From Eledone cirrhosa (Eukaryota), in contig OZ024742.1 of NCBI GenBank assembly GCA_964016885.1, positions 79,484,001 through 79,548,000 on the forward strand: a stretch of 64,000 bases of DNA, in the 5' to 3' direction. The notes under the pieces are model-generated. The model saw only the letters and a list, made by a program, of their open reading frames with translations, searched no databases and was not told where the DNA came from. This document shows, piece after piece, positions 461 to 59,648 of the stretch. The translations under genes and the position numbers were made by a program. Within the stretch, counting starts at the first letter, position 1, and every line of letters starts with the position of its first letter.

Positions 461-793
461 TTAGTAAAAGGAAAAGAAAATGCTGACAAATTTTTCCCAG
501 TGAAAAATAGTTTAATTAGGAATAAGCAAAAATTAGTAATAAGTATTGGTTAGTATTCAGTTTTAGTTTTAAGTTTTTGCAAACATCACGGGCGCTCTAA
601 AATTATTTTTGAAAAGCATTAGAAATGCGCAACCGGTAAAAACTTAAAACTAAAACTGAATACTAACCAATACTTATTACTCATTTTTACTTATTCCTAA
701 TTAAACTATTTTTCACTGGGAAAAATTTGTCAGCATTTTCTTTCCTTTTACTAATATATCACAACTCGTGTGTTACACCTCTTTTCTTTTAAA
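461..793 (+). mobile_element. Fold-back PLE-type short element between (TA)n arrays
   Basis: Inverted arms 461-578 and 638-754, about 34-nt unpaired tail 760-793. The spacer holds a decayed hammerhead-like motif (TTGAAAA GCATT aga AATGC GCAAC CG GTA, 609-638). Confidence 0.7.
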
Positions 794-822
794 TATATAT
801 ATATATATATATATATATATAT

Positions 823-992
823 ATAGGAAAAGAGTCAGTACCCCGACGGCTGAGCTCCGGCTGTTTCGACAGTTAGATCCGAGAAGGCGAGGTCCTAACT
901 CTTTTCCTATTACCCACTCTACTACTCTAAGTATTGAGTACTCTGGTGGGTTTTGGTCCACCTGCTATCTTACCACATCCTCTTTGACGTAA
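823..992 (+). mobile_element. Diverged copy of the palindromic PLE-type family also at 51947 and 58881
   Basis: Shares CCCCGACGGCTGAGCTC and the tail CCTATTACCCACTCTACTAC..AAGTATTGAGTACT..GGTCCACCTG. Short inverted repeat ATAGGAAAAGAGT/ACTCTTTTCCTAT. Confidence 0.8.
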
Positions 993-1495
993 TGAGGTTT
1001 ATTTTTCAACAGAGTTCCTGGAAAGACACAACCCAATTATCAACATGAAGCGTTGAAATTAATGCATGCAAGATTTCACAGCTCCAGCAGAACTCATTCA
1101 TAGGCAGCCTATGAACTCTTCAGCCCCACCCTCTCTCTCCATACACACACACACACACAAATATATATATATATATATAAAGAAAATTTCGCTCTACATG
1201 GCTGAATATAATAAATGTAATCTGAGCTTTTCGAATGTTAATAATAACATACGATTCGTTTACAATTTTGCAAACAAACCTCAATTTTATAGCCATGTCA
1301 GTCGAATGAACACTTCATTCTTGCTCTTGGGTTGGCATGCGAACAGAACTGCAGACACTAATGTTTCTGTGTATTACCCTTCACCAGAAGAGCTCACTGT
1401 TCACCTGCCAAACTGTCAGAGCTAGTGAGAATATATGCTATTATCAAAAATACACAGTGACTGATCGGCCTGACAGTTTGGCAGCTGAACAGTGA

Positions 1496-1541
1496 GCTGT
1501 ACTGATGAAGGGTGATACCCAGAAACATTAGTGTCTGTAGT
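1496..1541 (+). ncRNA. Type I hammerhead ribozyme, family A copy 1 (weakened stem I)
   Basis: GCTGTA CTGATGA AGGGTgatACCCA GAAAC ATTAGT GTC TGTAGT. Confidence 0.7.
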
Positions 1542-54990: not shown

Positions 54991-57105
54991 AAGACGATAT
55001 TATATATAAACTGCATTAGGAGAAAATTAGTATGTTTATTTAAGCGATCGCCACCGGAAGTGTTGACATCACACACTCTCTCTTTCTATATATATATATA
55101 TATGGTAGTTGAAGTGGTGGCGTCGATATACCGGAAATGCAACTTTGAAAAGAAGTCAATTTGAAATTATTTATTTTGACGAAATTATTTTTGTTTACGA
55201 AATCGAGCAGATAAATTATGTAATATTCATTCATTATTTATTCATAGTAATCCAACTACTTTTACAAACGGGATAAAAAAAAATAAACCGTACGCAATCT
55301 CGCAGACCTTCCTTTATTATAGTTTAGATTTTGAAGACCTTACGCTATTGTTTTAAAGTAGTGACTATGTCACTTACTTCTTTTTTCAACAAACTAAGGG
55401 AGATAAGCAGACAGATCTCTGGTACATACTGTTGGTATTTGTCAAAGCCTAGCACTCGCCTTGTTTGTTGAATTATTACTGGAATTCCAAAACAAGATCG
55501 AAATCACTGGATATTGTTCTAATCCCTTGTTATATATATATATATTGAAATATGTATATATATACACCTCGGTTATTTTTCATTTTGTAAAAAAAACCTC
55601 ACTTTCTAATATATATATATATATATATATATATATATATATAGTTGTTCTTCTTTAATTGACTTTCCGTTCTAATTCGGACAGAAAAAATGACATGAAC
55701 AGTGCCACACATATAATGTCATTCACCACTAACACGTGATAACATAATTTATCAGTGTAGTCGTTTTCAGAGAAAGCAATTGATTCTTCCTCTCTTAATA
55801 TTTTATGATTATTCATTCTGACAGAAATGCTAATCCCTACACAATTTTTTCCTTCTTCCATCCGACGTAGCTATCTAAGTATTCTATTTAGCTGTATTTT
55901 GCGTGTTTTGATGAGCTAAACCGTTTCATTTACTATATACTTTTAGCCAATTTAATGAAGTTAAGCTACTTCAAGTCAGGTGAATACATAGAATGGAGAC
56001 ATTTTTGATTTATTCGTATTTGTCATAGAACATAATCAACCACGACATTGTAAAATCACTAAATAACTCGTTAGATCGTCCTCAATCATTTAGTTTGACT
56101 TCTCCTACCACTGTACACTTCCCTATACAGTTTTCTCTCGTGACATTGGCTATTCCTATGCTACTGGAATATATGTTGGATGTTAAAAAGCTTGCTTATT
56201 GAATTTAATGGATGATCAGATGTGTATAATTCTATTCTTTTACTGGTTTCAGTCGTTAAATTACTGCCATGTTTGGACCCCGTCTTAAGGGATTTACATG
56301 AACATATCAATTCTAATAAATATGTTTTCAAGTCTGCTATTTAGTTAATCGTTCTCAGCAACGTAAACACACGCACACACAATTATACTACCCCATATGT
56401 GCATACACACACACGCACACAAGACTAGTCCGCTGATGAGCTATGAAAGTCTTGATTTGATATTTAACTATGTTAATTAGTCTAATCTTCTTAATCATGG
56501 TGAACCTGTGGTCTACACAATATGCAGGTAAACATTTATTTTCTGTTTGATAAGTTCTTAATAGTAATATAATTTTTTTGTATTGATATTGCTCTAGAAA
56601 ATACAGATTTTAGTCTGTATAAAGCATATTTGAGCCGATTTATGGTATAATATGTTTGAAATAAATTTATTTTAGTCCACGTTTATAATATACTATATAT
56701 GTATATATAAATATGCCGAACAATTGACCGAATGTTCGCTTGTTCACATCTAATCAAAATTAAGCTTTCTATTTTATTACATGCAAATTAGCTTCTCGAT
56801 ATTTTAGTGGGCAGAATCGCCGATAATTACCAAGAAGAAGGGAAGCGCATTGCTATAAACGAGAAGAGTACCGTATAATATAATAGTGGTTGGAATTACT
56901 ACAGAACAACCTGTTAGTTGGTCATTCTCTGTCTCTGACTTCTATTTTCTCCCTCTCGGAATAGGCCACGTTGTGTTGCGGGAGACGGTTCACAAACGGA
57001 TTGGGTGAAGGGCTAGCAACATCTTTTGAAAGAGAAAAAACAACAACTGATAAACCACTGGAACTGTCCAAGGACGAACTGTTATGCAGTATAACATGGC
57101 AAGGG

Positions 57106-57222
57106 TAATGGTGACGGTGGTGGTGACGACGACGACGAAGAAGAAGATGATGATAATGTTGATGATGATGATGACGATGACGATGAGAAGGATGAGGGAG
57201 AGAAGGAGTAGGAGGAGGAGGA
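57106..57222. repeat. Mixed trinucleotide microsatellite (GGT/GAC/GAT/GAG)
   Basis: Directly visible. Confidence 0.9.
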
Positions 57223-58511
57223 TATTCGAATGTGACTTAGTCAATGGCAACGACCTCAGCTTCCATCCTATAATATTGCAGATATATATTTTATGGATCT
57301 CACAAAGAGTTGAAAAGTAAATTCGAGCAAAATTGGCTCCACTTGAAAGCAAAACCTATATAAACGTATACTGTTTTCTTAAGCGGATTTTATCACATTT
57401 GTTGTATTTTATTATATTCTAGCTTCACCCTCTCGCCCTGAACCGCATGCACTACAAAAAAAACAACAAAAACTAAACAGCCTACTATACATATATAAAT
57501 GCTCCATGAAATCCCAATACACCCACTGCGTAAAAGAACAATGACACACTTTTAGATTTGCTCAGTCAATTACATATACTGAGACGTTACTTAGCGAATT
57601 TTGTGTTCATTACTTAATACAACAAATAAAATGTCTGTCCTGTTTTAATTTTCTCAACAGGTATGAGTTCAACAGACTGTCCAGAAAACAACGCACTCAT
57701 CTTTCAATGCAATTCGAATTGAGGCTACAATTCTGGTTGTTTGATTGTCTGACGATTGTACTAGTTTCACCTAGAAAGAAACTCAATTCAAATGTCCTTA
57801 TTAATATCTACATAGCATTCTAGCTATCTTTTTTTCTGCGTATCTCTCTCTCTCTCTCTCTCTCTCTATATATATATATATATATATATATATATATATA
57901 TATATATATATATATATATATATATATCTGTGACTGTGTATATATTTGTCGATCTATCCTCCATTCTGTCTCTGTGTGTCTGTCTGACTGTTTGACTAGC
58001 TGTTCTCCTACTTACCTATTTGTCTATAATATAACAAAAATTCCACCATTCACTGTTCAACTGTTCATTATTTAAAACTATTCACATCGCATTTTTCTAC
58101 TGTGTCGATGCAGAAAAAGAATGGAATTTTTCCGAACATGACAGGAATTCGATTGTCTGATCCGGAAACTTTGCTTATCAGAAGTCAGGTGTAAAAATTA
58201 AGAGGAAAGAACCAAACGATGCCGATATTTATGTGAAAATCCTTAACAGGTAGTAACAAGTAACGTAAAAGAATTTTTCCGAAGCATTACTATCGCAACA
58301 AGAAAAACATTATAATAAAGAGCCTACGTCGGGAAATTTTAAATGGTAGCATAGAATTGTTTTTACTTTTTCTAAATTTAACGTAGCAGACATTCTTTCA
58401 ACGTAGTTATATACGTCAAGGAAACGGATTTATCTTTCAAGTAGTGTCATGAAGTATATTCATATATGGGTATTCACCCTTAACTAAAGAGCTACGGTAT
58501 CCTCCAAGTGA

Positions 58512-59648
58512 ATATATATATATATATATATATATATATATATATATATATATATATATATATATATATATATATATATATACATATATATATATATACA
58601 TATATATACGCATGTATATATGTATATATATGTATATATATATATGTATATATATATGTATATATATGTATATATATGTATATATATATGTATATATATA
58701 TGTATATATATATGTATATATATACATATATATATGTAGATACATATACATATATATATATATATATATATATATATATATATATACATATGTGTGTGTG
58801 TGTGCGTATATATATATACACACACACATATGTATATATATATATATGTGTATGAATATATATATATATATATATATGTATAACGAAGGAAAAGTGGTAA
58901 GGAACCAGGTGGACCATAACGCACCAAAGTACTCAATACTTAGGGTAGTAGAGTGGGTAATAGGAGCAAGTAAGACCCCGACGGCTGAGCTCAGGCCGTT
59001 TCGACGGCTAATTGTGGACATAATTAGCCGTCGAAACGGCTTGAGCTCAGCCGTCGGGGTCTTACTTGTTCCTATATATATGTATATATATATATATGTA
59101 TATATATATGTATATATATGTATATATATATATATATGTATATATATACATATGTATATATATGTATATATATAAGTATATATATATTAATATATACATA
59201 TAGACAAATATATATATATATATTTGTATATATGTATATGTATGTATATATTAATATACATATATACTTATATATATATACTTATATATATATATATACA
59301 TATATATATATATACATATATATATGTATATATATATACATATATATAGACATATATATAGACATATATATATATATATATACATATATATATATATACA
59401 TATGTGTATATATATATATATATATATATATATATATACATATATATATATATACATATATACAATATATATATATACATATGTATATATATATATATAT
59501 ACATATATACATATGTATATATATATGTATATATATGTATATATATGTATATATATATATATATATATATAATAATATATACATATATATACACATATAT
59601 ACATATATGTATATATATACATATATATATATACATATACAAATATAT
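58512..59648. repeat. Long degenerate (TA)n array hosting a palindromic element
   Basis: Directly visible. Confidence 0.97.
58881..59075 (-). mobile_element. Palindromic PLE-type element, same family as 51947-52146
   Basis: Inverted repeat 58960-59075 with 8-nt loop 59014-59021; tail 58881-58959. Confidence 0.85.

What the first reader, a model, noticed from the sequence alone, without database searches (positions are those of the whole stretch)
461..59075. A diverse (TA)n-targeted system of hammerhead-bearing tandem and fold-back elements
Seen: roughly ten mostly unrelated short non-coding sequence families sit in (TA)n arrays. Examples start at 461, 823/51947/58881, 1178/41668, 4501, 7421, 8103/42393, 19149, 27217, 27741, 50521 and 53093. 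They share an architecture of inverted partial copy, direct copy and unpaired 3' tail, and/or tandem units. Intact minimal type-I hammerheads occur at 1919, 2344, 8974, 27362, 27915 and 50792; decayed or partial ones occur in the others. Established: Penelope-like elements carry minimal type-I hammerheads in their pseudo-LTRs, make inverted 5' ends with 3' tails and often target microsatellites, and metazoan retrozymes are non-coding tandem hammerhead repeats. Inference: this is a large radiation of PLE-dependent ribozyme retroelements, at about one per 5 kb in this window.
Basis: partly seen in the sequence, partly recalled or inferred. Interest (0 to 1): 0.85.

Follow-up and report, generated by a model that had tools for sequence, protein, structure and literature searches.

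The report
Penelope retroelement ends and retrozyme passengers
The window is littered with cut-off 3' ends of several Penelope-like retrotransposons and with five short protein-free tandem repeats carrying predicted hammerhead ribozymes, nearly all ending in TA microsatellites and most sharing one lopsided insertion footprint, which suggests the repeats likely hitch-hike on Penelope enzymes; this is a rich example of a known kind of element.

Summary
Observation real, interpretation half right. All six listed minimal type-I hammerheads are there (0.02 expected per shuffled window), plus two more; stems covary across families. But six of the eleven named 'non-coding families' (461, 823/51947/58881, 4501, 7421, 27217, 53093) are 5'-truncated 3' ends of coding Penelope-like elements (PLEs): elsewhere in the genome they run into RT/GIY-YIG reading frames of Neptune/Nematis-like and Hydra-like type. 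Five (1178, 8103, 19149, 27741, 50521) are ORF-less tandem units of ~420-660 nt, i.e. retrozyme-like. Both groups end at two fixed sites next to (TA)n, and 147 of 157 head-to-head insertions have one long and one short end (46 of 48 for ORF-less units): the PLE 'tail' footprint. MITEs are excluded. pLTR hammerheads, U3-A8 cores, inversions, tails, (TA)n targeting and PLE-derived retrozymes are all in print. Not found in the papers I read: tails of 50-120 nt, 3-6 nt TA microhomology at the inner start site, and the PLE footprint on ORF-less units. Cleavage and expression are untested; no partner was found for the five ORF-less families. New members of known kinds; interest 0.4.

The parts
456..795 (+). 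Family A: 3' tip of a coding PLE (CX4CxxC linker, Neptune/Nematis-like); inverted short arm plus direct arm with 36-nt tail; degenerate hammerhead at ~606-642 (U3-A8 core, A13 replaced by C in the whole family)
   Evidence: (L208 pLTR-ORF-pLTR; L202, L214)
826..978 (+). Family G, older diverged copy (inverted + direct arm)
1180..2530 (+). Family B: ORF-less tandem unit ~430-440 nt; inverted arm, partial unit and two full units; tail ~30 nt
1493..1544 (+).
1919..1968 (+). Type-I minimal hammerhead (family B), predicted cut after 1960
2344..2393 (+). Type-I minimal hammerhead (family B)
4501..4790 (+). Family I: old 3' tip of a Hydra-like coding PLE; U3-A8 hammerhead in relatives, decayed here; tail ~55-58 nt
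7421..7800 (+). Family J: old 3' tip of a Hydra-like coding PLE; hammerhead intact in relatives, decayed here; tail ~98 nt
8102..9283 (+). Family C: ORF-less tandem unit ~420 nt, inverted and direct arms; long tandem arrays elsewhere; tail ~52-56 nt
8974..9016 (+). Type-I minimal hammerhead (family C), 6-nt palindromic stem III, dimer-only
19148..19306 (+). Family L: end of an ORF-less tandem unit ~487 nt; hammerhead destroyed here by a 10-nt deletion, intact in other copies; tail ~108 nt
19341..19380 (-). Second family-L 3' tip facing the first across the TA array
26090..26661 (+).
26720..27191 (+). D-like older fragment with decayed hammerhead (core at ~27094); 5' limit approximate
27214..27702 (-). 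Family D: 3' tip of a Hydra-like coding PLE, two arms joined at a natural hairpin; tail 92 nt
27362..27416 (-). Type-I minimal hammerhead (family D)
27741..28526 (-). Family E: ORF-less tandem unit 538 nt, one full and one partial unit; tail ~112-123 nt
27915..27996 (-). Type-I hammerhead (family E), long stem II
28604..28699 (+). Short family-C fragment beside a TA array
41669..42379 (.). Second family-B insertion, head-to-head arms, one long and one short end; weak hammerhead at 41848-41889 (-)
42387..42592 (.). Family-C fragment
50520..51380 (-). Family F: ORF-less tandem unit ~658 nt, one full and one partial unit; tail ~60-103 nt
50792..50870 (-). Type-I hammerhead (family F)
51950..52145 (+). 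Family G: 3' tip of a young Hydra-like coding PLE, cut inside hammerhead loop II; inverted short arm + direct arm with 78-nt tail
53086..53344 (+). Family K: 3' tip of a coding PLE (CX4CxxC linker), cut downstream of its hammerhead; tail 57 nt
58881..59082 (-). Third family-G insertion

Best explanation
These are two things with one insertion footprint: 5'-truncated 3' ends of RT + GIY-YIG Penelope-like elements (families A, D, G, I, J, K, plus M), and ORF-less tandem units with predicted hammerheads (B, C, E, F, L) that are likely copied in trans by Penelope proteins. Likely mechanism: the PLE protein binds the element RNA just 3' of the hammerhead, cuts both strands of a (TA)n array, and each broken DNA end primes its own cDNA, one from an inner and one from an outer start site on the RNA (inferred from the footprint and from the two start sites and two-strand cutting shown in vitro for an anole PLE, PMC11167929). 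The inner site is likely primed by 2-6 nt of pairing between the TA end and an internal UAUA-like motif (inferred). The two cDNAs, usually truncated, are joined 5' to 5', often at an RNA hairpin (D, G), giving inverted arm + direct arm + 'tail'. For ORF-less units the template is an uncut multimer or circle, so RT reads through the ribozyme into the next unit and leaves partial tandems (shown: constant unit junctions, no pile-up of 5' ends at the cut site). The hammerheads would cut mainly as dimers through their palindromic stem III (predicted, untested) and cleavage is likely not needed for insertion.
For: ORF linkage: A in pLTR-ORF-pLTR at L208 and downstream of ORFs at L202, L214 (RT and GIY-YIG by Pfam); G with the GIY-YIG frame upstream in 13 of 25 loci; K 6 of 19, J 5 of 19, I 4 of 19 loci with sense PLE-protein hits upstream, collinear between loci; D collinear from endonuclease to ribozyme in 9 of 13 further loci; M in 7 loci. 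GIY-YIG search: 10,597 candidates, 150 of 150 scored over cut-off. Tandem units with constant junctions. Two fixed 3' ends followed by TA versus SINE control. Long+short in 147 of 157 head-to-head pairs, 8 long+long, 2 short+short; 46 of 48 for B, E, F, L. Inner-end TA overlap 6, 3, 5, 2, 5, 6, 3, 4 nt in A, B, C, D, E, F, G, K; chance of 3 or more is 0.11 per site. Covariation: 8 of 10 stem-II pairs change on both sides in 16 J-like ribozymes, 0 of 500 shuffles reach the score; four reciprocal stem-II arm types in E-like ribozymes; joint C3-G8 to U3-A8 switch in A, G, I and others while single changes are rare (317 C3G8, 20 U3A8 of which 4 minisatellite false hits, 1 C3A8, 3 U3G8 in 284 loci). 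5' ends within -6..+8 of the cut site: 6 of 133 in B, E, F, L.
Against: No coding partner was found for B, C, E, F, L among 169 regions downstream of PLE ORFs, so trans-mobilisation rests on the footprint alone. Loci are the top 15-30 of 40 scored hits per search, and several queries included the outer end, which forces one long arm (the other arm is still short in 147 of 155). Family C was not included in the pair count and I gave no pairs. Outer ends show weak or mixed TA overlap (1-5 nt); I, J and L gave no junctions in that test. Families are related, so microhomology and covariation counts are not independent. Monomer folds of B, E and F bury the core (hammerhead fold costs 5.9, 2.5 and 7.1 kcal/mol); only 6 of 32 ribozyme clusters have C at position 11.1; family A spread with a C in place of A13. 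Clade names rest on motifs, not on a tree with named references.
Confidence: 0.82

Rival explanations
1. All families, the tandem ones included, are just ends of coding PLEs; the ORF-less units are local tandem duplications or satellites born from pLTRs and are not themselves mobile.
For: Six of eleven families did turn out to be coding ends. C and F form long local arrays. bioRxiv 10.64898/2026.07.22.740005 discusses local amplification of pLTRs into tandem repeats.
Against: B, E, F, L are dispersed over many chromosomes (3,081, 2,873, 3,223, 1,305 candidates), keep the same unit junction at unrelated loci, and carry the junction inside head-to-head insertions with long+short ends, so the multimer was the template. 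No PLE protein hit lies collinearly upstream in B, C, E, F or L loci.
Confidence: 0.1
2. The ORF-less units are retrozymes mobilised by another RT (a LINE), and share TA arrays with PLEs only because AT-rich sites tolerate insertions.
For: LINE frames are common in the window and flanks; PMC7229834 leaves LINEs open as helpers; no PLE partner identified.
Against: Two fixed 3' ends used one per arm in 46 of 48 pairs, the same as in the coding PLE ends; the SINE control is not TA-targeted.
Confidence: 0.05
3. The fold-back families are MITEs of a TA-targeting DNA transposon.
For: Inverted arms flanked by TA; D and G often share a near-constant centre.
Against: Ends are unequal (long+short), 5' junctions vary, arms are the same strand-specific 3' end of longer elements, and A, D, G, K continue into RT/GIY-YIG frames.
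Confidence: 0.01
4. The hammerhead motifs are catalytically dead protein-binding or structural signals rather than working ribozymes (compatible with the best explanation on mobility).
For: Non-standard 10.1-11.1 pairs, core-burying monomer folds, A13 change fixed in family A, no 5'-end pile-up at the cut site; 8 of 9 Xenopus dimers did not cleave (bioRxiv 10.64898/2026.07.22.740005); low activity in PMC4209133.
Against: Core letters, the 3-8 tertiary pair, NUH triplet and palindromic stem III are all kept across about 30 sequence clusters while stems covary.
Confidence: 0.3

Closest known systems
EN+ Penelope-like elements, Neptune/Nematis clades (PMC8557442, passages)
   Same: RT then C-terminal GIY-YIG, CX2-5CxxC linker (A and K frames), pLTR with hammerhead, inverted 5'-truncated copy, tail at one end, (TA)n targets
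   Different: K tail 57 nt rather than 30-40; family A has a fixed A13 change; Neptune versus Nematis not resolved here
Hydra clade PLEs (PMC8557442, section 11 read)
   Same: CxCX5C linker, CxxC and CxH around the end of the endonuclease, hammerheads, (TA)n insertion (D, G; decayed I, J)
   Different: 3' UTRs of ~1-1.3 kb, tails of 55-98 nt, truncation hot spots at hairpins; G is young (98-99% identity) and abundant, whereas the paper reports few families outside cnidarians; N-terminal RWK/DKT motifs not checked
Minimal hammerheads of metazoan PLEs (PMC4209133, parts 1-2 read)
   Same: Type I, palindromic stem III, extra base after position 9, U3-A8 variant, thousands of copies in many consensus families, pairs on opposite strands 100-700 bp apart
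   Different: G10.1-C11.1, called highly conserved there, is uncommon here (C11.1 in 6 of 32 clusters)
Non-LTR retrozymes (PMC7229834, passages; bioRxiv 10.64898/2026.07.22.740005, parts 1-3 read)
   Same: ORF-less tandem units of a few hundred nt, one type-I hammerhead per unit, low GC, co-occurring with PLEs
   Different: Minimal PLE-type rather than canonical ribozymes; 420-660 nt; inserted in (TA)n with PLE inversions and tails; circular RNA and cleavage untested; no pLTR homologue identified
Anole Poseidon PAc (PMC11167929, parts 1-2 read)
   Same: Two internal start sites that define the tail; AT-rich target; uncut RNA as substrate
   Different: There the start site is not homologous to the target and the tail is 30-40 bp; here inner sites overlap the target by 2-6 nt and tails reach ~120 nt

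Membership tests
EN+ Penelope-like element (A, D, G, I, J, K, M) | ORF with RT and C-terminal GIY-YIG endonuclease in the full element | tested here: met
   Pfam RVT_1 (just under its cut-off) and GIY-YIG on the A frame and its sister; G, D, K, J, I, M by motifs and tblastn/collinearity; Pfam gave no relevant hit for the G and K fragments; RT part not seen for D, J, M
EN+ Penelope-like element (A, D, G, I, J, K, M) | Pseudo-LTR / partial tandem and inverted 5'-truncated copy | tested here: met
   L208 pLTR-ORF-pLTR plus inverted arm
EN+ Penelope-like element (A, D, G, I, J, K, M) | Optional 30-40 bp tail at one end | tested here: met
   Two fixed ends, one per arm; length 36 nt in A but 55-98 nt in D, G, I, J, K, outside the published range; not tested for M
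EN+ Penelope-like element (A, D, G, I, J, K, M) | Type-I hammerhead near the 3' end | tested here: met
   D, G, J, K, I in relatives; degenerate in A
Hydra clade (D, G, I, J) | CxCX5C linker with CxxC and CxH, no CCHH | tested here: met
   G and D frames; I and J decayed, 27-47% identical to Hydra-type frames of this genome
Hydra clade (D, G, I, J) | RWK and DKT motifs; placement in an RT tree with named Hydra elements | not tested
Non-LTR retrozyme (B, C, E, F, L) | Non-coding tandem units, each with a type-I hammerhead | tested here: met
Non-LTR retrozyme (B, C, E, F, L) | Dispersed, no LTR/PBS/PPT, mobilised in trans | tested here: inconclusive
   Dispersal and PLE footprint shown; helper not identified; PBS/PPT not searched
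Non-LTR retrozyme (B, C, E, F, L) | Self-cleavage and abundant linear/circular RNA | not testable with these tools
   No RNA holder listed; folds are predictions only
MITE / TIR DNA transposon | Fixed symmetric terminal inverted repeats, no RT parent | tested here: not met

The most novel reading that the evidence does not exclude
Every inverted Penelope insertion is a twin-primed event: the two ends of one cut (TA)n array each prime a cDNA, one at an inner start site that pairs with the target and one at an outer site 30-120 nt further on; ORF-less minimal-hammerhead tandem units carry the same two-site signal, which would be direct footprint evidence that Penelope proteins mobilise animal retrozymes, and this genome offers about eleven natural substrates with mapped start sites to test it.
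Probability: 0.6. Interest if true: 0.58.

Novelty: new member of a known kind. Interest (0 to 1): 0.4.

Why it matters
As annotation, it explains a large share of unclassified short repeats in this genome (roughly 80,000 descriptor-passing hammerheads if the 400-kb sample is typical; Poisson range about 41,000-147,000) and warns that fold-back TA-flanked repeats that look like MITEs or miRNA precursors can be Penelope ends. Mechanistically, how PLEs make inverted copies with a tail, and who moves animal retrozymes, are open in the papers read; the 147-of-157 long+short rule, the long tails and the TA overlap at inner start sites give mapped, testable predictions.

Tried and rejected
Rfam scan at E<=10: no hammerhead family in the 150 rows shown of 287. 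RNA evidence: no RNA holder listed; two contig runs of one sample laid on 27190-28560 show only that the families are present and high-copy there; neither bears on expression. Pile-up of 5' ends at ribozyme cut sites: not seen (6 of 133). Partner search for B, C, E, F, L: none in 169 ORF-downstream regions; the only D/E hits were one real D linkage and one nested E. My interim reading of D as a fixed, non-coding fold-back element was dropped after searches showed a coding parent; the constant centre is a hairpin hot spot (tail on either arm, 12 versus 7 two-armed loci of the 30). Ten U3-A8 'hits' (4 in L196, 6 in L356) are a minisatellite and were discarded. The first microhomology count collapsed identical junctions and was redone. 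MFE z-scores were unconvincing for C, F, G (-0.2, -1.0, -0.6) and good for B, D, E (-3.0, -2.2, -3.5). The MAFFT alignment of E-like ribozymes misplaced two rows, so arms were counted by anchoring instead. Two look-ups of earlier findings returned nothing. MITE reading rejected.

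
Full report
Setting. The window lies in a 3.0-Gb animal genome. The nearest named proteins to its PLE frames are molluscan, at 47-48% identity; the repeat content looks cephalopod-like (recalled, not tested). I label the families A (461), B (1178/41668), C (8103/42393), D (27217), E (27741), F (50521), G (823/51947/58881), I (4501), J (7421), K (53093), L (19149) and M (missed, ~26090).

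The ribozymes are there. A descriptor for type-I hammerheads finds the six listed motifs and two more B copies, all with self-complementary stem III; a stricter version found 7 in the window and 0.02 per shuffle over 50 shuffles. Rfam showed none among 150 of 287 rows. In 284 loci (1,051,271 bases, chosen by family or GIY-YIG searches, some overlapping) there are 317 C3-G8 and 20 U3-A8 hits (4 of them a minisatellite), 1 C3-A8 and 3 U3-G8, against 0-1 per class in three shuffles; they fall into 32 clusters at 80% similarity, 2 of them the minisatellite. Covariation: in 16 hand-picked distinct J-like ribozymes, 8 of 10 stem-II pairs change on both sides, 92.9% of cells pair, 0 of 500 shuffles reach the covariation score, though two type-count measures are not above shuffle (81/500, 433/500) and the rows are related. 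E-like ribozymes show four reciprocal stem-II arm types. Against efficient cleavage: monomer folds of B, E, F bury the core, C11.1 occurs in only 6 of 32 clusters, and family A has C for A13 in nearly all copies counted.

Six named families are ends of coding elements. A: at L208 it flanks an RT/GIY-YIG region on both sides (82%) with a tail-less inverted copy at the 5' side; at L202 it lies downstream of a 515-aa frame (91%) (Pfam). G: longer copies hold a full U3-A8 hammerhead and, in 13 of 25 loci, the end of a GIY-YIG frame ~1.3 kb upstream; copies are 98-99% identical. K, J and I have sense PLE-protein hits upstream in 6, 5 and 4 of 19 loci each, collinear between loci. D runs collinearly from an endonuclease frame through ~1 kb of UTR to the ribozyme in L107 and 9 of 13 further loci. 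M starts right after K-related frames in 7 loci. A and K frames have a CX4CxxC linker (Neptune/Nematis type); G and D have CxCX5C with CxxC and CxH (Hydra type as defined in PMC8557442). PLEs are abundant: 10,597 GIY-YIG candidates, 150 of 150 scored above cut-off, and 13 of 40 unselected 10-kb stretches hit PLE proteins.

Five families are ORF-less tandem units: B ~430-440 nt, C ~420, E 538, F ~658, L ~487. The unit junction is constant across unrelated loci while 5' truncation points vary. First-look candidates: B 3,081, C 363, E 2,873, F 3,223, L 1,305; for the coding ends A 172, D 1,105, G 348, I 641, J 422, K 85; these are lower bounds and only 40 were scored each. No homologous pLTR was found in 169 regions downstream of PLE frames.

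One footprint. Each family has two fixed 3' ends, followed by (TA)n far more often than the ends of a control SINE (10 of 115, 18 of 111). Distance between the ends: A 36, B ~30, C 52-56, I 55-58, K 57, F 60-103, G 78, D 92, J ~98, L ~108 (two long ends only), E 112-123 nt. Head-to-head pairs are long+short in 147 of 157 (A 17/18, B 19/21, D 22/24, E 18/18, F 8/8, G 43/46, J 3/3, K 16/18, L 1/1, I none; C not tested). Selection matters: several queries held the outer end, but D and F queries held neither end and give 30 of 32. Inner ends overlap the target by 6, 3, 5, 2, 5, 6, 3, 4 nt (A, B, C, D, E, F, G, K), 7 of 8 at 3 or more where 0.11 is expected per site; outer ends give 1-5 nt; I, J, L gave no count. 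5' ends do not gather at the ribozyme cut site in B, E, F, L (6 of 133) but do gather at hairpins in D and inside loop II in G.

Mechanism. Shown: ORF linkage, constant units, two ends, one-long-one-short, TA targeting, read-through across the ribozyme. Inferred: two-strand cut in (TA)n, one cDNA per broken end from two internal start sites, pairing-assisted priming at the inner site, 5'-5' joining, trans use of ORF-less multimeric or circular RNA, dimer-dependent and dispensable cleavage. The inference leans on PMC11167929, where an anole PLE protein cuts and extends both strands, starts at two internal sites that bound the tail, and does not need ribozyme cleavage.

Density. In 40 evenly spaced 10-kb stretches (399,800 bases) 17 hits passed, 6 in one minisatellite; 11 remain, versus 0-1 in ten shuffles and 7 in the 64-kb window by the same filter; the eleven window families give 29 insertions there versus 15 in the window (families were defined from the window, which favours it). 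So one per 5 kb is a rich window, about one ribozyme per 36 kb is the sample average.

What is known. PMC4209133 (parts 1-2 of 4 read): minimal PLE hammerheads in thousands of copies and many families, palindromic stem III, U3-A8 variant, low activity. PMC8557442 (passages and section 11): partial tandems, inverted 5' copy, 30-40 bp tail at one end, (TA)n bias, Hydra clade. PMC3846280 (passages): 31-bp tail on one inverted pLTR, palindromes at junctions, trans action on pLTR-flanked sequence. PMC11167929 (parts 1-2 of 4). PMC7229834 (passages): non-LTR retrozymes, PLEs proposed as helpers. bioRxiv 10.64898/2026.07.22.740005 (parts 1-3 of 5): retrozymes as non-autonomous PLE derivatives by co-occurrence and pLTR homology. 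PMC13282606 (passages): an octopus repeat annotation with PLE expansion and no mention of hammerheads. In nine searches and these readings I saw no tail above 40 bp, no target microhomology at PLE start sites and no PLE tail/inversion footprint on retrozymes; the library lacks most subscription papers and Repbase, and I read no supplements.

Verdict. New members of known kinds, with quantitative details (long tails, long+short rule, TA overlap, footprint on ORF-less units) that sharpen open mechanistic questions. Interest 0.4.

Noticed in passing
window 19267-19380; L140, L157, L252, L263 and others: Two 3' ends of the same family facing each other across one TA array; 15 such convergent pairs listed, mostly like with like (12 of 15 long+long or short+short), unlike head-to-head pairs.
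   Followed up: partly
   Followed up: yes
window 50400-50473: Short I-like fragment with a C3-G8 hammerhead-like core (50407) ending at a TA array.
   Followed up: no
window 49706-49960 (-): Decayed Hydra-like endonuclease remnant (tblastn E ~1e-6).
   Followed up: no
window 606-642 and family A loci: Family A spread with A13 of the ribozyme core replaced by C, while its sister family keeps GAAA: a natural test of whether cleavage matters.
   Followed up: partly
L338, L365 versus L351, L372, L373 and L203: Similar, more canonical-looking hammerheads that differ jointly at core positions 3 and 8 (U-A versus C-G).
   Followed up: no
L196:760-1830; L356:7700-8150: A ~27-32 nt AT-rich minisatellite that mimics a U3-A8 hammerhead in descriptor searches.
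   Followed up: no
window 31576-36306: A frameshifted LINE-like element (ORF1, AP endonuclease, RT; type judged from recalled motifs).
   Followed up: no
window 2619-2818, 9536-9985, 18568-18758, 23121-23328, 39288-39506, 41507-41662: A ~190-nt SINE-like repeat, about one per 11 kb genome-wide, not TA-targeted; used as control.
   Followed up: partly
window 3022-3660 and 53913-54839: Two decayed frames with a CxC/H-rich stretch and a DATC motif, resembling the end of a restriction-like-endonuclease non-LTR element (recalled).
   Followed up: no
G000:C28:~44.44-44.46 Mb (L218-L221, L229, L233): Long tandem arrays of family C units, each with its hammerhead.
   Followed up: partly
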